Shown here in pieces: positions 910 to 60,231 of a stretch of 64,000 nucleotides of DNA. The notes beneath the pieces are model-generated. The model worked only from the letters and a program-made list of their open reading frames with translations. It did no database searches and was not told where the DNA came from. The stretch spans positions 122,822,001 through 122,886,000 of the forward strand of contig NC_042997.1 of assembly GCF_006345805.1 (NCBI RefSeq). The letters are read 5' to 3'. The position numbers were made by a program, and so were the translations under genes. This stretch comes from Octopus sinensis (lineage: Eukaryota). Numbering within the stretch: the stretch's first letter is position 1; the number at the start of each line of letters is the position of its first letter.

Positions 910-2415
910 CAACAATTGAGGGTAAAGTTAATTAGTTATTAATCAATTTCACCAGTATTCAGTATGTAAAAGGACCATTATTTTTTTTGAGTAAAACATT
1001 GTCTGAGAGAAATTTTCTTTAGGTAGTGGAAAAGGCTAAAAAAAACTTATTTGGCTGCTATTTCTAGAAAGTTCAGTATGTGGCAAAGTAATTTATTTAC
1101 TAGGCCCTAATTATATAATATTTTATATATACATACATACATACACACATACATATCACATACAATGCATACACACATATATACATATATACATATATAC
1201 ACACACACCACACATACTATATATATATTTCTTTACATACATACACACACACACACACATAATACATGCGTATATTCCTACTATACCCATACAGTTTCTA
1301 TACATATATACGATACACATATACAAGCGTGCACATACATATGTGAAATGTCTTAGGAGAAAAGGTAGTCGGGGGTGCTAGGGGAACGGTGGATTGTGGG
1401 GGTTTTGTGGGTGGGGTGTCATCAATCTGGTTGCCGGGTAGGTCTATAGTTCTTGTAGTTTGCATAATTCTTATGCATGCAATTTGGGGAGTGTTCTGAG
1501 ATCTTGTTAAGGAGAGGGCCTTTGGCGAACAAGATCTCTAGGCTCTCCGAAATGCGAAGGTCACAGCAGGTATGGCCTCCTGTGTACGAACGCGCCTTCT
1601 GTAGTAGTTTCCATTTGGTCTTGAAGGGGATGGAGTTCCTTTTAAGGTACCAGATGTGGGCGGCGAGGGTAGTTTGGTTGGATTTATCCGGTCGCCGGAA
1701 CGAGTGTTTGTGTGCGTACCAACGGGTCTCGGAAAAAGTAGGTATGTTAAGTTTTTTCACATTGTTGTTGGCTAGGTTCCTGGCTAGATTGGGCGTGGTA
1801 GAGTAGGAGAGTCTAATAGTGTTCTTATTTAGGATAGTGTAGTACTTATGTTGGGTGGGAAGTTGTTTCTGTAGGAGAGTGAAGAAGATTTTAGCTATAG
1901 GTGTAGCGACCCTCATTGTTGAAGGGGGTTGTACCAGCTAATGTGTCTTCGTCTATTTTCCTGGGTTGGCGTGGGGGCTATACTAGTATAGGTAATCTTA
2001 TCTTTAAAGCCACTGCGGGCAGGCCTCGTTGTAATAGGGGCTGCAGCCTTAAAGATATCTTCCGCGTGGGCGTTCAGGCTAGAAATTCTAATTGAACACT
2101 TTTTACTAGGTTATCTAATATATTTTTTGGGGGGTTGGATTAATATCTATATATCTAAGGGATTCAATTGGTTTTTGGTACGGGTAATAAAGTGAGGTTT
2201 TTAAGTCGAGGGTGACGTCAAGAAGTTAGCTTTGGTTAAGTTGGATTCTAAGGTAATCCTAAGGGCCTAAGTTTTTAAAGAAGGTGTAAAGATTTTTCCG
2301 GAAAATCCCGTGGTCCTGAGGTTTATTTTGTGGAGGGCGAAAAGGCCGTCATCCGCGTAAAGAACCACCGGAGAGGCCTGTGAATAGGGTTTTCAGCCAT
2401 GGAGGATGAAAGGCC
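910..2415 (-). mobile_element. Penelope-like retroelement, 5'-truncated and frameshifted (RT C-terminus plus endonuclease region)
   Basis: The minus strand gives LYADDGL (YADD at 2348-2359), LDVTLDL (~2200-2222) and WYNP (~1925-1937). ORF 1422-1916 then reads HKYYTILNKNTIRLSYS..PN, RWYAHKHSF, NQTTLAAHIWYLK, CDL..SE..I, LLNK..E...CMH, typical of PLE thumb/linker and GIY-YIG C-terminal regions. Confidence 0.85.
1422..1916 (-). pseudogene. PLE linker/endonuclease ORF remnant lacking the GIY-YIG core
   Basis: 164-aa ORF with PLE motifs; the expected Cys-rich and VY..YxG segment is missing at ~1737. Confidence 0.75.
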
Positions 2416-2431
2416 CATATATATGTATATA

Positions 2432-2860: not shown

Positions 2861-5800
2861 CCAACCGGCAGCAAGGGCCATGGAGACGGAGAACCCGGTG
2901 AAGAGGTAGAGGGAGGAAGAAGAACTAAAAGAAGGACTGGAAGAGCTAAAGGAAAAGAAAAAGCTCAAGCAGGACCAAAGTGTGAAACAACCAGAAATAG
3001 AAGTGGAACCGCAAAGGATGGAACCAAACAGCGCACACGGGTGTGTATGTTCTACCTGAGAGGTTCCTGCTGGCATGGAAAGGAAGGTGCAGGCTGCCGC
3101 TTTGCACATCGGGGACCCTGCCACAGAGACACGAGGCAGATGGACAAAACCATCAACACAAAGAAAAGGGATGGACCACGCACCACCTGCCCCAAAACGG
3201 AGGTACGCAGATGTTGTGCGCTCCACAAACAGCCAACATGATGTCGAAAGAGCAGCTGCTGAGCAACAATCTTTTTTGTGCATGGCACAAAAATTGTACA
3301 GCAGCTGACCTGGCTTCATCAAACCCAAGCCCGCAGGTGGGACTACCCACTATATACCAGACCACCACAGCAAACAGACACAGGATGGACACCGCCGGCA
3401 ACAACGTACACTCACCTCGATACTCCTACTGAACATCAGAGGACTGCAAACACTCAGTAACAGGACAAAGATCCCGTTCCTGAGAGACTTTGTTGCATGC
3501 AATCAAGCCTTATGCATAGCACTTACAGAAACGCACCTGAAACCGGACATAGCAGATGCGGAGTACACATACCACAGTATGCTGTACTACGGACCGACAG
3601 GAAAAGAAAGGAGTCATGGAGGTGTTGCTATGTACATCCGTGAGGACCTCACACCCCAGGTCCTCTTGTCATACTCAAACTCGGTGTGTGAACACACTAA
3701 TTGTACATATTAGGCAACTTGATGTAGTGGTGTGTGCTACATATCGCCCTCCAGATGCCCCAAGCCATGTGGGCAATTGTTTGAAGACTGCCTTATAAAA
3801 ATAGAAGAAATTCTAACCACATTAGAGCAACACATAGGTGTGCTTCTTATGGGAGACTTCAATCTGCCCAATGTCAGATGGCCCGAGGGCCTTTCTCTCC
3901 CAGGAATGACAAGATGTGAACGAGGACAGGCGAGGTCCCTCCTGAACCTCATCAACACCCTGTACATGGAGCAGGTAATACTCCAACCAACCGGGCAGGT
4001 AACACACTGGATCTCTGCTTCACAAATGACATGAATCTCATCCATAATGTGAAAGTGACACCGACACTACTCTCGGATCACAACATGATAGAGCTGACCA
4101 TGTACGGGCCAAAAGAAGCACGGACATGCAGCCTACAAGAAAACCCTCAAAATCTTCCAGCTTGAACTACCATAAGGAAAACTGGAAACAAATTGAGAAA
4201 GAGATCCTCAAACAAAACTGGCCTAAATGTCTCTCCTCGCCAGACATCGACGTGAAACTTCAACAATTCATGTCTGTAATGCAAGCCATATGCTACAAAT
4301 GTGTCCCAGAGAGAAAGGCCACTGTACACAAGAACAAAATCCCAGAGAGAGGAAAATTTTAATGAGACGGCGTACGAAATTTTCAAATCGCCTAAACAAA
4401 CAGATTGAAAGCAGTGAAAAGTCCCGCCTAAAAATAAAACTGTTGGAAATCGAAAAATGTCTGCAACTCTCCCCATGAAAAAGAAAGGCAGACAAAGAGC
4501 CTGGGCTATAGAAAACAAAATCTAACCCCAGAGCTTTCTACAGGTAGCCAAAGAAACAGCTACAGTGCACTGTAGAATAGGGCCACTCCTCGAAAAGGAT
4601 GGCACACTTAAGGAAAACCAATGAGGGAAGTGAAATACTGAATGAGCAATTCAAGAGTGTTTTCACTCCACCCCTTGGGCATCTCCAAATCACCAATCCA
4701 ACTGACTTTTTTAACCACTGCAGATATAAAATCAGAGGCGGCGACGATAGATTACATCGATATAAAGGAAGACGATGTAACCAAGGCTATAGATGAAATG
4801 AAAACAGACTCAGCTACTGGCCCCGATGGATTCCCGGCAATCCTCCTAAAAGCATGTAAGAGAGTCCTAGCAAGACCACTGCAGTTCCTCTTTCAGAGCT
4901 TCCTTGCAGCTGGCAAACTTCCAGGAAAACTGAAGAGGTAAAATATGCCCCATTCATAAAGGAGGTACACGAGCGGAAGCCAAGAACTATAGACCTATCT
5001 CTCTGACCTCACACATCAGCAAGGTCATGGAACGAATAGTCAGAAGAAGCTGATCACCTTCCTTGAAGAGAATGACTTGCTGCCCGACACCCAACATGGT
5101 TTTCCGACCAGGGAGAAGCTGTTTAACTCAGCTCCTACAACACTATGACTGGGTGCTGAAACGGCTGCTCAACCACTCAAATGTGGAAGTGATATATCTC
5201 GACTTTGCAAAGGCCTTTGATAAAGTCGATCATGGAATGATATGTCACAAACTGCGTGATCTCAACATAGTTGGAAAACTGGGAGAATGGCTTCATGACT
5301 TTCTGAAGGATAGAAGTCAGGTGGTAGTAGCCATTGGGCCACCTCCATTAACACACAAATAGTGAGCGGTGTTCCGCAGGGCACTGTTCTGGGACCACTA
5401 CTGTTCATATGGCCCTCTCACATGCCCTCACCCACGCAGAGAGCCACGATCACAAGTTATGCAGATGATACAAATTTTCACAGGCAATACAGAACCCTGA
5501 GGACACTAAACATCTGCAATGTGAGCTGGACGAAATATACAAGTGGGCTGAAAAGAATAGCATGCAGTTCAATGCTGGAAAGTTTCAAGCTTTATACTAT
5601 CAGCATGCAAAACTGAATGCAATACCCAATGAATACACTGGACCCGAGGGATTGCAATCCCAGAGGCACAATCAGTGCGTGACCTGGGTATTCACATGAG
5701 TGATGACGCGACCTTTCATGTACATGTTGCTAAACTGACAATGAATGTAGACGGCTGGCTGGATGGATTCTAGACCCTTTAGAACAAGAGAACAAAAAAC

Positions 5801-6448
5801 CATGATGGTCCTCTGGAAGACACTTGCCCTAAGCCACTTTGAATATTGCTTCTCAGCTATGGTCACCATCCAGTGTCAAGTTGATCACAGAACTTGAGGC
5901 GATCCAACGAAGCTACACAAAGAAGATAGCCTCTATGCAGAATGTAGCTACTGGGAAAGACTCAAGAGATTAAAATATTATTCTCTGGAGCGTAGGCGGG
6001 AAGATATGCCATAATATACATCTGGAAGATCCTGGAGGAAGTGTCCTGAACTTTGGCATCGAGAGTTACGCACATGCCAGAACTGGGCGCCACTGCGTGG
6101 TGCCTAGGACTCCAACCTGCCATCAAGATGTAGGACAAGATTCTGTGATAGCCTGGGCTTCCGAGGCCCACAGCTCTTCAATATCCTCCCGAAGAACCTG
6201 AGAGACCTGCATGGGGTGGATACAGATGTCTTTAAAATGAAGCTGGATCTCTTCCTGTCAGGTGTCCCAGATGAACCAACTTCACGGCAGGAGGGGCAGA
6301 TGAGGGCAGCTGCATCGAACTCTCTCATGCACCAAATAGCAGTTGCTAGAAAGCCTCCATGAAGTGAAACCAAGTAGCAACACCAAATGGCGGTGCCCCA
6401 GCATGGCCACAGCTCATAAGCTGAAACTAGAATCAATCAATCAATCAA
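2861..6448 (+). mobile_element. Non-LTR retrotransposon (APE-RT LINE, CR1/L2/Proto2-like group), near full length, multiply frameshifted
   Basis: The ORF1 fragment has a CCCH finger (3044-3109). APE motifs: IALTETHL, GGVAMYIREDL, YRPPD, MGDFNLP, SDHNMI. RT motifs: GPDGFP, NYRPISLTS, YLDFAKAFDKVDH, SGVPQGTVLGPLLF, YADDT. C-terminus GPQLFNILP..FKMKLDLFL..VPDEP..SNSL; (AATC)n tail at 6431-6448. Confidence 0.95.
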
Positions 6449-6569
6449 TATATGTATGTGTATGTGTATGTGTATATGTACATATGCGTGTACGCTCGTG
6501 TGTTTAGGTATATGTAGGTACGTAGAGTTATGTATGTGTGTATGTATATGTACATATGTGTAGTATGTG

Positions 6570-6603
<34 letters not shown>

Positions 6604-8020
6604 ATAAATATATAATATATATATATATATGTGTGTGTGTGTGTAAGTTTATATGTATGTATCCGTCTGTATAATAGGTAACTGCACGTATATATACTTA
6701 ATATTTATTATTTATTATTTATTATTTATTTTTGAGTATGCATTATGAATAACTGCACGTATATACATTTTATTACTTATTTTTTTGAGTATGCATGTAA
6801 GTATGAACATAAGGAGTGGCGTGTGTGTGTGTGTATGTGTAAGCATAGATATATGTATAATTGTACGCATGTGTGTACTTATGTGTATAAACATAAGGAG
6901 TGGCGTGTGTGTGTGTGTGTATGGGTACGCATGTATATGTGTATTGTATATGTGTGTATGTGTATATGCGTGTTGTGTATATGTGTATGTATGTGTGTGT
7001 GTATATATGTATATGTATGTATGTATATGTATGTATGTATATATATATATTATATAATATATATCTATATGTATGTATGTATATGTAATATGTGTATGTA
7101 TTTGTATGTGTATGCATGCGCGTATTGTATGTATATGTATACGTGTGGGTGTGTGTATGTGTGTATATATGTATGTATGTATGGATGTTATGTATGTATG
7201 TATGTATGCGGATATGTATATATATTATATATATTATATATGTGTGTGTATGGTATATATATATGTGTATATATATGTATGTATGTATTTGTATGTAGGT
7301 GTTATGTATGTGTGTATATATATTTATTGGTGTATACGTATAGACTAGTCTTCTAAGATTGTAGACATGAATCTGTAGGTACGCGTACGTATGTGTATAT
7401 ACTGTATGTATGTAGATTAGTATGTATGAATATAACGCGTGCGTGCGTGTATGTTTTGTGAGTTACAATGAGTGAGGTGTGCGTGCTAATGAGTGTGCGT
7501 GCGTGAGTGAGTTTTGTGCTCAAGTAAAGATAAAAGGGACTAGCTGTCGTAGCCAAGATGCTTGTGACCAGCGGTCAAAGATAACAAATTAATAAATGAA
7601 GATAATAAATTAAAATTAGGGAATGGGTTTGTATTCGTAGGTATATGTGTGTATGTGTAGGTATGAATAGGTACACATATGTATGTATATGTTATATGTA
7701 TATATATGTATATATACATATATGTGTATATGTATATATGAGTATATAGGGACTTGTGTGTTGTGTGTGCATGTGTGTATGTGGATTTGTGTGTGTGTAG
7801 TGTATGTGTTATGTATGTATATTTGTATGGTATATGGTCGTGTGGTTGTGTATATGCATGTGTGTATGTATTGATATATATACTAGTATATATATGTAGA
7901 TATATATGTATGTATATGGTTGTGTGTTATATATATATATATATATATATGGGTGTGTGTGTATGTTGTTGTGTATGTATATGTGTGTGTGTGTGTGTAT
8001 ATATGTATACATATGTGATA
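6449..8020. repeat. Compound (TG/TA)n low-complexity tract with short internal tandem duplications
   Basis: TAACTGCACGTATATA...TTTTGAGTATGCAT occurs twice (~6679-6796) and AACATAAGGAGTGGCGTGTG twice (~6806 and ~6890). Confidence 0.85.
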
Positions 8021-8320
8021 GGTATAAGTGGAATTTCCTTATTTACCTAAAACTCTATTCTTCTATATATATTTTTATTCTTTCCTTTTTTTATTTTATT
8101 CTTTTATTTATTCTTCTATCTAATTTACCACTGACTCCTTGACCACTCACCCAAGTATGATTTTTTTGCGCTATGCCTACCCCAAAAGTCCCCCACACCA
8201 CCACCCCTTAAAACTGCCTAAATGTATAAATGCCAATACAATTCTTGTTAACTAGCTTTCTGAGATTTCTCTTGAATGAAACAGTTCTAGTAGTGTAGAA
8301 GCTCCCTCTATATAATAAAT
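8020..8320 (+). mobile_element. PLE-type terminal repeat (pLTR)-like segment with a degenerate hammerhead motif
   Basis: AGCTTT-CTGA(-)GA...GAAA-CAGTTCTAGTAGTG-TA-GAAGCT at 8254-8303, AATAAA at 8314, then (TA)n. Confidence 0.5.
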
Positions 8321-11560: not shown

Positions 11561-11650
11561 CGAGAAGGCAGCTATTATGTATATATGCCTGTATGCATAT
11601 ATGTATGTATGTATGTATTTACGTATGTACGTATCTATGTGTGTATATGT

Positions 11651-11766
11651 AGGAAGAGTTTACGAAAAAAGCAAAAGAAGAAGACAGGTGGTGTAAAAAA
11701 CAAACAGAGGTATTAGTATAACGCTCAGGAATAGAAAAGTGTTTTACGTTTCGAGCCTACGCTCAT
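11651..11766 (-). mobile_element. PLE-like terminal repeat fragment (GAGCGTAGGCTCGAAACGT family)
   Basis: Homologous to 30130-30287 and 59300-59572; flanked by TA/CA microsatellite. Confidence 0.7.
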
Positions 11767-15769: not shown

Positions 15770-15812
<43 letters not shown>

Positions 15813-15814
<2 letters not shown>

Positions 15815-15872
15815 CGATGGCCGGATAACTGAAGAGATGGCGGCGTGGATTTCCATCCCAGAATCTGAAACT
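15813..15872 (+). ncRNA. Truncated hammerhead ribozyme motif (same family as 33419-33490)
   Basis: GGCCGGATAA-CTGAAGA-GATGGCGGCGTGGATTTCCATCCCAGAATCT-GAAACT; stem III and the 3' strand of stem I are lost. Confidence 0.55.
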
Positions 15873-16436: not shown

Positions 16437-16921
16437 GCGGACTGAGTCCCCTCGCGATCGCGAGGGGACTGAGTGTGTATGTTTGTGTGTAGATGGATAT
16501 ATCAATGAAAGGAATTCCAACTTTGATTTTCACGTTTTATTTACAATCTTAATATAATATTATATAATTAAATTATAAAATATTAAATGTTCATCTTGAT
16601 TGAAGTAGCACTTTAATGCATTAAACTATGCAGGCTTCAGTTTCCTATATTTATGGTGATAATTATATTTTACAATTTACAACTGTAGTGAAATAGCAAA
16701 AATGTGTACCCCAAATAAATTTCTTTAGGCTGCAGCATGTTACGTTTTGCAAACTGTATTCTGACCAATCACTAAGTTACTTAACTTGACTGGTGTTTGG
16801 TTTAGGCGTCACGGTTTGTTGAAAATGTCAAGAGACCCGTAATTTGACCCTAGCCAAAGCAGTAAATATTTGGATATTTTTAGAAATGTAAACACTTCCT
16901 ACAGGTTTTTACGTTTCAATT

Positions 16922-21260: not shown

Positions 21261-21591
<331 letters not shown>

Positions 21592-26832: not shown

Positions 26833-28484
26833 AAAATGAAAATGAAATTGAACAAGAACAAACAAACAAAAAGGGACATATGAAGTCAAAAGAACGGGAT
26901 AGCCGACCCCACGAGCCCTGTTATTTTAACTGAAGCCTTTTGGTCAACATTTAAATGCATAAACAGCAACTATAGGCGAATACAAACGTATTTTTGGGTC
27001 GGTGTCAAAACAAAAATGTAACATATCAGTCACGTTACAAACTAATAATTTTATTTGTATCGGTTGTTAAGTTAACCTAAATAATCACACCCTCATTTCT
27101 CTTCCTTTAAACTTAGACATAAAGCTAATAGCACGTCATTATCCATGAAGGTTTGGGAACTCAAAGATAATAATATTAAATTCAACATAATATGGAATAT
27201 AATTCGTAGAGCTCAACGTCACTCGAATAGTTGATATGGGTGCGAACTGTGCTGTATGAAGCTGTACGAAATATATAAATATAGGCATAAAGGTAATTTA
27301 ATTAATAATAGTTAGCTCTGAAATGTTCATGCGTTCATAAAAGTAATCGTGCTGTTAAGTATTCTAAAAGCATTACTTAATCAGCTAGCCCAAGTTTCTC
27401 TAATATGAAAACATCCATACTTTCGCTTAATTTCATATTTGAGTCTGTGTAGTAGAATTACCTACGTGGTTATCTAGTGGCATCACTTAACCTCCTGGTC
27501 CCGACAGATCTTTCGTTTAGATAATTATACCTTGATTAGTTTAATATAGCTTTTACAATTATTGTATGCTTTGGGCAATTGATACTAGAACTTGTCTATA
27601 ACGTAACATATCACCTAAACCTATTGGCATTTTACCATAGCTTTATTCCTATATATAATTTTTATTACTTATAATTACACTTAATAATGTTTGGTGTTGG
27701 TGTCTTATCATACCCATAGATAAGACACCAACACAGATAAGGATTTGGTTTATCTGATTGCATTACATAATATGAAACCTTATAATTCCTCACTGAAATA
27801 TTATATTTTTTAATATTACTATAGTATGCTAATATTACTTGTTTTATAAAATGTTGCCATAACCAACTCTCTATGTCTGACTATTTATAATCTATAATAA
27901 GAAATTAACTATTTGTTTTTTTATTCATTTCCTTTCTAATTATTTATGACTTGTATACTATAGTACCCTACTGTTCTACGATTACTTTATTATAAATAAT
28001 CTTACATTCCAAATATACATTTTTACTGCTACGCTACCGTAACTAGTAATATTACTTTATTTCTTTAATCTTAATTCTATTGCGCTATTTGTGACATTTC
28101 TTTAATTACCATTAAAAATACCATACTTTCTATATTATTATTATATTATATTTACTCTGGTTTATACAATTTTTTCCCAATTCCATTTTTACTATTATCC
28201 AAATTACTTTATTACAACGCCACTCATTTTAATATAACCCCCATTTTCTACTTTAATTTTTACCTAATATAACTACTTCTCTGGTTCGCGTACTCAGCCG
28301 AAGAAAACCGTGTTCTACAATGATATAATAGATCCATTGGTCAATACAAAATCGTTAGAAACAGCTGTAATGAACTGACACCTATCCATAGTTTGCTCTG
28401 TATACGTACATACTTACACACACACACATCTGTATATATATATATATATATACATTATCCTATATCGATACATATATACATACA

Positions 28485-29508: not shown

Positions 29509-29589
29509 AAACAATTGCAGCGTGGAAGGTGTTTGTAAGCCATTTAAGAAACACATGGCTTACAAACACCTTCCACGCTGCAATTGTTT
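29509..29589. repeat. Perfect 35-bp hairpin with an 11-nt loop, between (TA)n arrays
   Basis: AAACAATTGCAGCGTGGAAGGTGTTTGTAAGCCAT / ATGGCTTACAAACACCTTCCACGCTGCAATTGTTT. Confidence 0.95.
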
Positions 29590-30125: not shown

Positions 30126-30129
30126 AGAT

Positions 30130-30285
30130 CGCTGGCCACTAAACGTTTGTTTTTCTCTCCATGTTTATTTCTGTATTACTTTCTGTTGAAGGGCGTAGGC
30201 TCGAAGCATAAAATGACTTTCTCACTAATACATGTGTTTTTTTGTTTACACACTCGGTTTCGTCTTTTTTTGTAAATTCTCATTC

Positions 30286-30287
<2 letters not shown>
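30130..30287 (+). mobile_element. PLE-like terminal repeat fragment (GAGCGTAGGCTCGAAACGT family)
   Basis: TTCTGTTGAAGGGCGTAGGCTCGAAGC; homologous to 59300-59572; ends in (TA)n. Confidence 0.7.
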
Positions 30288-33277: not shown

Positions 33278-33322
<45 letters not shown>

Positions 33323-33323
<1 letters not shown>

Positions 33324-33495
33324 ATAAAAATGGTAAGGCAACAAAAAATGAAAGAGACCTTGATATTATGTAAATAGTGGAATTTATCTGTAAAAGTAAT
33401 ATGTGACAATTATTTGGTAGCCATGATAAAACTCCGAGTTTCGGATTCCGAGGTGGAAATCCATGCTGCCATCTCTTCAGTTATCTGGCCATCGT
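33323..33495 (-). mobile_element. Short PLE-type terminal repeat carrying a hammerhead, abutting (TA)n
   Basis: Contains the motif at 33419-33490; its 3' end runs into the (TA)n array at 33279-33322. Confidence 0.65.
33419..33490 (-). ncRNA. Minimal type-I hammerhead ribozyme
   Basis: Minus strand: GGCCA-GATAA [CTGAAGA] G-ATGGCAGCATGGATTTCCACCTCGGAATC-C [GAAA] CTC-G-GAG [TT] TTATC-A-TGGCT. The core is complete, stem I pairs, and stem III is near-palindromic. Confidence 0.75.
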
Positions 33496-33974
33496 AAAAA
33501 ATGCTGTGAAAATCACCCTATATATATATGATGTCATATTCCGGGATGATCATTTTTTTGCCAAATAAATACACGCACTATATATTCTTCGTTTCAACGT
33601 TATTATGGTTTTTATTCTTTGTGTCATTTGTCTTAAACTTTTCGCCTCACATACTGTAAAGTATTCAGCGTCTCTCCATTCCATGAATTTCCATCCCTTG
33701 TAACTCTGCCTGTTCTAAAAGGACAGAATGGGCTAAACAGAACAATAAGAGTCATGTAGGACGGTGAGTCGATGAAGAGGTCACAGGATGTGGGAAGAAA
33801 GGTTTCCAGTCAAACGAATCTAAGATAACAACAATAATGCATCTGAAGCGAAAGCGAATGTATAGTGCGTGCATTTGTTTGACACAACAAAATATGACTA
33901 TCCCGAAATATAACAATACCTGTTTCAACAATCTATTTCACACCAAGAAAATTTTGCAAATCAAATGCATAAAC

Positions 33975-58934: not shown

Positions 58935-59572
58935 ATCCTCCAACCCACCTCTCCTCTCTTACGCTGACTCCTACTTCTTCTCTTCACTCCTACCCACATA
59001 CCCCACCTTTAATCCACCCTCCTCCTACTCAGACCCCACCTCTACCCCACCCTCACCCTAACCCACACCCCACACTTGATTTCCTCACTCCCGCCTCTCC
59101 CACTCCCAACACCATCACACCACACACCAGTACGCCTTCCACCACCATACCACACAATACAGCACAGCACACGTCCACGAACACATGAGCACTGACAACT
59201 TCCCAGACCCACATTTTCACACCGACACATACAGACACGCACACGTCAAGATCACCATCCCTCTCCACACTCACATACAAACTCTCTTATACACACACGC
59301 GCACCATCGTTTTGGGATTACCACCACTTTGTTACCTCCCAACCTCATTAGATCTTCTGTGTGATCCTTCTCTCAGGCCTTCGCCGTGATAGATCGCTAG
59401 CCACTACACATTCTATATTTTCTCTCCTTGTTTGTTTCTGTGTTCTTTTCTGTGGATAAGCGTAGGCTCGAAACGTTAAAGACTGTTTCACTTCCCGAGC
59501 GTTATTCTAATACATCTGTTTGTTGTCAACACCTGACCTCGTCTTTTGTTTTTTGTGAAATCTTCCTATGTA
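58935..59572 (+). mobile_element. PLE-like terminal repeat: C/A-rich low-complexity tract followed by the GAGCGTAGGCTCGAAACGT-family terminus
   Basis: 59300-59572 is homologous to 11651-11766 and 30130-30287. Confidence 0.7.
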
Positions 59573-60231
59573 TATTAATTCAATGTAAGTTAGAATTGTG
59601 AATCCAACCAACAAAGGGATAATATCTATCCAATATACTGCTGGTAGCATACCAAATTATTAAAACACACGCGTCTTTTATTGCATTGCAATTGCATTAC
59701 CCAGTGTACTAAATGGGTGAAGGTAGAGATATTTTACCATTAATTTATAGGGCAATAAGAGAATGGAGGGGATCAATAGGTGGTATTCATCAAAATTAGA
59801 CATTATATTACGTTAACAATTATAAGAATATACATACATGTATAACATATTATGTTTTAGATATAAAAATATATTAATAATATATGAATTATTAAAATAT
59901 AACGTATTCTCTCCCTTTTTTCTCTCTTTTACTTGTTTCAGTCATATACAAAAGCATAGATATATAAATATACATATTTATATGAATATGAATATACATA
60001 TTCATATGGTTCAGCTGAAAGTTATTTTCCAAATTTATATTCCTGTATGTTATATTTTAATAATTACTGGCATCTTTATACATTAATATATCTTTATATG
60101 TAAAGCATAATATGTTATACATGTATGTATATTCTTGTAATTGTCATTTTAGTAAATCAATAAATAAATTGATATAATATAATGTCTAAAAGTTGATGAA
60201 CCACCTCTTGATCCCCTCCATTTTCTTATTG

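What the first reader, a model, noticed from the sequence alone, without database searches (positions are those of the whole stretch)
33419..33490. Apparently complete minimal hammerhead ribozyme in a short (TA)n-anchored element
Seen (minus strand): an extended stem I (GGCCA-GATAA / TTATC-A-TGGCT), CUGAAGA, a G-C-closed stem II with a ~29-nt insert, GAAA, stem III CUC-G-GAG and a GUU triplet. Predicted cleavage is between 33430 and 33429, and a truncated sibling lies at 15813-15872. Known: PLE pLTRs carry minimal type-I hammerheads whose palindromic stem III favours dimeric cleavage. Inference: with 8254, 28291 and the 11651/30130/59300 family, the window holds several unrelated ORF-less ribozyme-bearing mini-elements next to TA/CA arrays, possibly a retrozyme-like non-autonomous system.
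Basis: partly seen in the sequence, partly recalled or inferred. Interest (0 to 1): 0.75.

Follow-up and report, generated by a model that had tools for sequence, protein, structure and literature searches.

The report
Hydra-clade Penelope end with hammerhead ribozyme
This is the broken-off end of a known kind of animal jumping gene, carrying a predicted self-cutting RNA fold; the one twist is that the family's youngest copies kept spreading after a change in that fold's core, which hints that the cutting may not be needed.

Summary
The hammerhead fold is really at 33490-33419 (minus), with every consensus core base. It is not part of an ORF-less mini-element. It sits in a ~197-nt, 5'-truncated 3' end (pLTR plus 66-nt tail) of a Hydra-clade Penelope-like element (PLE), between (TA)n tracts. 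Genomic relatives carry the same end before and after an RT + GIY-YIG ORF with the Hydra motifs (L195, L061, L097). The retrozyme reading therefore fails. The window copy is old, and its stem II is damaged. New detail: an RT tree shows a subfamily ladder whose younger rungs fixed U4C in the core (2,296 exact copies against 97 with U4). This allows a direct test of whether PLE hammerheads are needed. The scan had noted Hydra-clade hammerheads and twin hairpins before on other DNA. Cleavage is untested.

The parts
33321..33517 (-). 5'-truncated 3' end (pLTR + tail) of a Hydra-clade PLE, older subfamily A
   Evidence: 87-94% alike to the 29 other loci over this span; 91% over 186 nt to the pLTR upstream of the ORF in L195
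33419..33490 (-). type I hammerhead, consensus core intact, predicted cleavage between 33430 and 33429
33443..33473 (-). stem II/loop II; a long irregular hairpin in the family, damaged in this copy
33431..33439 (-). palindromic stem III (ACUC-G-GAGU); predicted intermolecular duplex -9.7 kcal/mol
   Evidence: the same ACTC-N-GAGT in 5 of 26 Hydra rows of File S2 of PMC8557442
33321..33386 (-). 66-nt optional tail between the family's two 3' ends; begins with TAAATT and a bulged hairpin that is mutated in this copy
33279..33320 (.). (TA)n tract at the 3' junction (likely the target)
33520..33529 (.). short TA tract at the 5' junction
15812..15872 (+). truncated sibling, same subfamily, lacks stem III and stem I 3'

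Best explanation
The motif lies in the 5'-truncated 3' end of a Hydra-clade Penelope-like retroelement that has thousands of copies in this genome and encodes reverse transcriptase plus a GIY-YIG endonuclease; the hammerhead is predicted, not shown, to cut, and this decayed copy is likely inert. Shown: identity with the pLTR of coding copies, two fixed 3' ends 66-67 nt apart abutting (TA)n, inverted truncated partner copies, and the Hydra protein motifs. Inferred, by analogy to Poseidon of Anolis (PMC11167929): the protein nicks a TA tract and starts reverse transcription inside the RNA at one of two sites, each followed by TAAAT and a bulged CCTC/GAGG stem. Here it began at the distal site and stopped after ~197 nt. 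Inferred: in the parent element the hammerhead would cut weakly, with two palindromic stems III pairing in tandem transcripts, possibly with help from the protein, and the cut is probably not essential, because descendants that fixed U4C kept amplifying.
For: Walk from the 3' end to the ORF: (24 of 30 loci found by the upstream 3' UTR have the hammerhead end downstream on the same strand). L097 = pLTR - ORF (broken by stops and shifts) - 3' UTR - pLTR - (TA)n. L195 = window-type pLTR, then 5' UTR, then the N-terminal half of the ORF, 72% alike to L129, plus an inverted truncated copy. 18 of the 40 scored hits have an adjacent inverted partial copy. Hydra motifs RWK, DKT, CxCx5C, CxxC..E..N..CxH, no CCHH (defined in PMC8557442 section 11). 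955 protein relatives at E<=1e-10, best 43-52% alike. Of 102 hammerhead-spanning copies 67 carry the tail and 35 do not (sample biased towards tails). Stem III pairing probability as a monomer is 0.04. Subfamily ladder on the RT tree, 3 label changes against 15.0 shuffled.
Against: No cleavage data. Pfam sees only a weak GIY-YIG hit (E 0.03-0.06, below cut-off) and no RT family. No tree with published Hydra sequences was built; the clade call rests on motifs and a comparison by eye with Hydra-1_Obim. The hammerhead fold of the window copy is far above its minimum free energy (-5.7 to -9.1 against -19.7 kcal/mol). No intact A-type full-length copy was retrieved: 2 exact matches to a tail-body junction pattern, both incomplete. 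The two start sites and the dimer are inferred from other PLEs.
Confidence: 0.92

Rival explanations
1. The unit is a non-autonomous non-LTR retrozyme or SINE-like mini-element, copied on its own through a small circular RNA.
For: Most copies are short and ORF-less. One locus has two ~500-nt units in tandem (L002/L004) and L133 has three pLTRs about 520 nt apart. Retrozymes are proposed to derive from pLTRs (10.64898/2026.07.22.740005, part 1 of 5).
Against: 5' ends are scattered and nest along the coding element. The tandems are partial PLE tandems with TA tracts, inverted pieces or ORF starts between the units. The window copy is a singleton. Retrozymes are defined as 150-450-bp tandem repeats with a hammerhead in each unit (PMC7229834 passages).
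Confidence: 0.04
2. This copy has been kept by the host as a working ribozyme in a transcript that runs through it.
For: Its core is intact, as in 49 of 72 subfamily A copies. Core sites changed somewhat less than same-base flanks: 18 against 26.2 expected, p=0.054.
Against: Stem II and the tail hairpin are mutated. The core deficit is not significant after controls. G12 decays like other CpG sites (9 of 72). No RNA evidence for this locus.
Confidence: 0.03
3. Sub-rival on the younger lineage: the U4C hammerhead still cuts enough in vivo, so the ribozyme is still needed.
For: A U4C viroid variant with much lower in vitro activity remains infectious (PMC3088659 passage). The other core bases and the stem III palindrome are kept in subfamily B2.
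Against: B1/B2 also changed the base before G12 (C to U), lost a stem II pair and a stem I pair. The B2 member folded did not form stem I. Hammerhead mutants do not affect insertion in vitro for Poseidon (PMC11167929). 1 of 30 ORF-bearing copies starts within 3 nt of the cut site.
Confidence: 0.5

Closest known systems
Hydra clade of C-terminal EN+ PLEs and their hammerheads, e.g. Hydra-1_Obim, Hydra-2_Amil, Penelope-3_HM, Penelope-16_HM (Craig et al. 2021, PMC8557442; seen: passages, sections 3 and 11, supplement part 2 of 59 and two supplement searches)
   Same: RWK, DKT, CxCx5C linker, CxxC and CxH, no CCHH; (TA)n targets; type I hammerhead near the 3' end; ACTC-N-GAGT stem III; by eye the N-terminal protein text of Hydra-1_Obim is colinear with this ORF.
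   Different: Hammerhead sequence differs from Hydra-1_Obim, so this is another family. About 3.1 kb per unit with a ~0.9-kb TG/TA-rich 3' UTR (published: under ~3 kb). Long irregular stem II with an extra base before G12. Younger subfamilies carry U4C, whereas all 26 Hydra rows of File S2 have CUGA.
[quoted passage not shown]
   Same: Type I, long helix II, G10.1-C11.1, palindromic helix III, mostly dispersed single copies from truncated PLEs, low activity expected.
   Different: There the unpaired base lies between A9 and 10.1; here it lies on the 3' side of stem II. Stem I is longer.
Poseidon_Ac tail and internal RT initiation (Frangieh et al. 2024, PMC11167929; parts 1-2 of 4 read)
   Same: Two fixed 3' ends that define an optional tail; AT-rich targets; hammerhead in the pLTR.
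   Different: Other clade; tail 66-67 nt here against 30-40; the hammerhead and both ends lie before the start codon here.
Animal non-LTR retrozymes (PMC7229834 passages; 10.64898/2026.07.22.740005 part 1 of 5)
   Same: Type I hammerhead in a short ORF-less stretch.
   Different: No head-to-tail array of fixed units; the copies are nested truncations of a coding element.

Membership tests
Type I hammerhead | Core C3 U4 G5 A6 N7 G8 A9, G12 A13 A14 A15.1, U16.1, H17 | tested here: met
   consensus as in PMC3088659
Type I hammerhead | Three stems around the core, open at stem I | tested here: inconclusive
   Stems I and III can be drawn; stem II is sound in the family (L022, z -2.5) but weak in this copy; monomer stem III probability 0.04
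Type I hammerhead | Self-cleavage after H17 | not testable with these tools
   needs in vitro assay
EN+ Penelope-like element | Single ORF, RT followed by GIY-YIG endonuclease | tested here: met
   633-aa stop-free stretch in L129 with YKDD and YVG; Pfam GIY-YIG only weak, RT not hit
EN+ Penelope-like element | pLTRs from partial tandems, inverted 5'-truncated copies | tested here: met
   L097, L195, 18 of 40 hits
EN+ Penelope-like element | Optional tail at one end | tested here: met
   two 3' ends, 67 with and 35 without tail of 102
Hydra clade | RWK motif and DKG changed to DKT | tested here: met
   RMRWKAFF and FSDKTK in L195, L106, L129; RWN in the decayed L097
Hydra clade | CxCx5C linker, CxxC and CxH around E and N, no CCHH | tested here: met
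Hydra clade | (TA)n insertion preference and hammerhead present | tested here: met
Hydra clade | Falls in the Hydra clade of an RT phylogeny | not tested
   published reference proteins were not available as stored sequences; compared by eye only
Non-LTR retrozyme | Tandem repeats of 150-450 bp, each with a hammerhead | tested here: not met
   window copy single; no such array in the window; only partial PLE tandems in loci
Non-LTR retrozyme | Non-coding element, not a piece of an autonomous one | tested here: not met
Non-LTR retrozyme | Circular monomer RNA | not testable with these tools
   only assembled contigs were laid

The most novel reading that the evidence does not exclude
This PLE lineage lost ribozyme activity (U4C, then further stem changes) and went on through at least two more waves of retrotransposition to over 2,000 copies, a natural proof that the near-universal PLE hammerhead is dispensable for mobility; the Neptune-type family in the same window, with A6U in all aligned copies, would be a second case.
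Probability: 0.4. Interest if true: 0.5.

Novelty: new member of a known kind. Interest (0 to 1): 0.27.

Why it matters
The motif itself is ordinary: Hydra-clade hammerheads are published, one from an octopus. What hammerheads do for PLEs is an open question (PMC8557442 suggests they may be passengers; PMC11167929 finds them unnecessary in vitro). This family gives a dated series of natural variants on one lineage, from an intact core (A) to U4C (AB, B1, B2), that can be assayed side by side.

Tried and rejected
Rfam at E<=1: no hammerhead hit among 116 matches, all microsatellite look-alikes. Pfam on an ORF piece of L061: nothing useful. Raw core conservation looked significant (2.5% against 4.9%, p=0.003) but fell to p=0.054 after removing 4 subfamily-variable sites and matching bases; not used as evidence of selection. 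The U4/C4 labels printed were wrong (pattern slip) and were redone; the 'tail+body' label undercounts (15 rows by reading, 3 by script). Selection for U4 reversion in the B background: 97 TG against 79 CA, p=0.20, so neutral CpG decay. Pile-up of 5' ends at the cut site: 1 of 30, and these are nearly all U4C-type copies, so the test says little about subfamily A. Sequencing runs: no RNA holder on record was listed. Contigs of 3 of 4 runs guessed to be RNA cover all 30 bins of the B2 element L129; RNA status is a guess and contigs show no ends, so this is not counted. Coding body for the 28291 family: not found in 15 loci with 1.5-kb flanks. Lunse et al. 2017 on PLE hammerhead variants was not held (title seen only in a reference list) and may already list U4C or A6U. 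Two loci duplicated across searches were dropped before the count of 102 (L096, L095 rows).

Full report
Observation. H17 is 33430. A strict descriptor finds only this site in the window, and 2 of 200 composition-matched random windows give any hit. Rfam does not detect it. The sibling at 15812-15872 is 87% alike and ends before stem III.

Extent and family. A search of G000 (2.72 Gb) with 33325-33530 gave 2,784 candidates, 40 scored, 88-94% alike. The shared stretch is about 33517-33321 and ends at (TA)n. 18 of the 40 have an inverted partial copy next to them, a PLE hallmark (PMC8557442 Fig. 2 legend). Several loci extend upstream. Walking on leads through a ~0.9-kb TG/TA-rich 3' UTR into a GIY-YIG domain and an RT. 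L097 shows the full layout: pLTR (87% alike over 777 nt to the downstream one), tail, 5' UTR, ORF broken by stops and shifts, 3' UTR, pLTR, (TA)n. L195 has the window's own subfamily end (91% over 186 nt) directly before the ORF start. The window copy is thus a 5'-truncated 3' end.

Clade. Craig et al. define Hydra by RWK, DKT, a CxCx5C linker, CxxC and CxH around conserved E and N, no CCHH, and (TA)n targets (section 11). All are present. Their File S1 lists an octopus member, Hydra-1_Obim. Their File S2 has 26 Hydra hammerhead rows, all with CUGA and 5 with the same ACTC-N-GAGT stem III. By eye the Hydra-1_Obim N-terminus is colinear with this ORF, but its hammerhead differs. A protein search gave 955 relatives at E<=1e-10 among 7,994 scored, best 43-52% alike, nearly all unnamed. 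Pfam gives only a sub-threshold GIY-YIG hit. No tree with published sequences was made.

The ribozyme. In the family, stem II is a long irregular hairpin with one extra C before G12 (L022, z -2.5). In the window copy it is replaced by other small hairpins; the hammerhead fold costs 10-14 kcal/mol over the minimum, and monomer stem III has probability 0.04, while two stems III pair at -9.7 kcal/mol. That fits the dimer model (PMC4209133), where in vitro activity was low. In 72 subfamily A copies 49 keep the core. Core sites are not significantly better kept than matched flanks (18 against 26.2, p=0.054), as expected for copies that decay after insertion.

Two 3' ends. Of 102 copies spanning the hammerhead, 35 lack the tail (most stop about 43 nt after the cut site) and 67 carry it; 15 of these run on into the ORF body (read by row; sample biased towards tails). 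Both ends are followed by TAAAT and a CCTC...GAGG stem with a 2-nt pyrimidine bulge on the 3' side. I looked for this after reading earlier scan notes and found it in this family; folding energies of the first hairpin are weak (-3.7). By analogy with Poseidon_Ac (PMC11167929) the two ends are inferred to be internal RT start sites.

Subfamily ladder. An 800-nt RT tree of 54 copies (27 with a hammerhead label) orders them A, AB, B1, B2 with 3 label changes against 15.0 shuffled; mean pairwise identity rises 0.907, 0.925, 0.966, 0.980 (midpoint root, polarity inferred from branch lengths and from published CUGA cores). Position 4 is U in 63 of 72 A copies (6 unreadable), C in 6 of 9 AB, 7 of 9 B1 (2 unreadable) and 12 of 12 B2. 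Genome-wide exact counts: 1,665 for a degenerate A-type 25-mer with U4, 2,296 for the B-type 25-mer with C4, 97 for it with U4, 79 for the mirror CpG change. The U4 copies in the B background are thus CpG decay (p=0.20). B1/B2 also changed the base before G12 and lost stem pairs. U4C lowers activity but was tolerated in a viroid (PMC3088659), so loss of cutting is not shown. Four literature searches found no report of such a lineage, but Lunse et al. 2017 was not held.

11651/30130/59300: 2,352 candidates; upstream lie RT (YIDD) and a GIY-YIG with CX2-5CxxC linker and CCHH, so Neptune-type; all 17 aligned rows have U at core position 6. 8254: 2,058 candidates; L185 has a Hydra-type ORF (40% alike to L129) running into the shared 3' UTR, which is ~3 kb long; the family has a consensus-core hammerhead with a GUA triplet, and the window copy has lost a core base. 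28291: an old family (144 candidates) with a hammerhead of palindromic stem III; no coding body found. So three of four families are coding PLE ends.

Verdict. Real motif, known system, new family of the Hydra clade. The retrozyme idea is not supported. Interest comes from the natural U4C series.

Noticed in passing
window ~6700-8315 (+), hammerhead 8254-8304; L185: 3' end of a second, younger Hydra-clade family with a ~3-kb microsatellite-rich 3' UTR; a bulged hairpin follows its short 3' end too.
   Followed up: yes
window ~1600-2420 (-): Frameshifted RT/endonuclease fragment of that second Hydra family.
   Followed up: partly
window 11644-11766 (-), 30126-30286 (+), 59300-59575 (+); L135-L154: Neptune-type PLE ends with a minimal hammerhead that has U instead of A at core position 6 in all 17 aligned copies.
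   Followed up: partly
window 28290-28385 (+); L155-L169: Old hammerhead family with a very long stem II and palindromic ACAGCTGT stem III; inverted partial copies in some places; coding body not found.
   Followed up: partly
window 33532-33915: About 380-nt repeat with imperfect terminal inverted arms (35 nt, 83%), MITE-like, next to the finding; a similar end flanks another copy of this PLE in L132.
   Followed up: no
window 5239-6662: Matches a 1.4-kb repeat near L097 at 86%; looks like another LINE-type element, not examined.
   Followed up: no
L111, L113, L119, L112, L126: Some ORF-bearing copies begin at or just before one of the two 3'-end positions, next to (TA)n or (GATA)n, with no hammerhead upstream.
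   Followed up: partly
window 29509-29589, 16441-16474, 21261-21591: Near-perfect palindromes; the first scores 47.6 bits against mir-955 (cut-off 50), probably a fold-back repeat.
   Followed up: no
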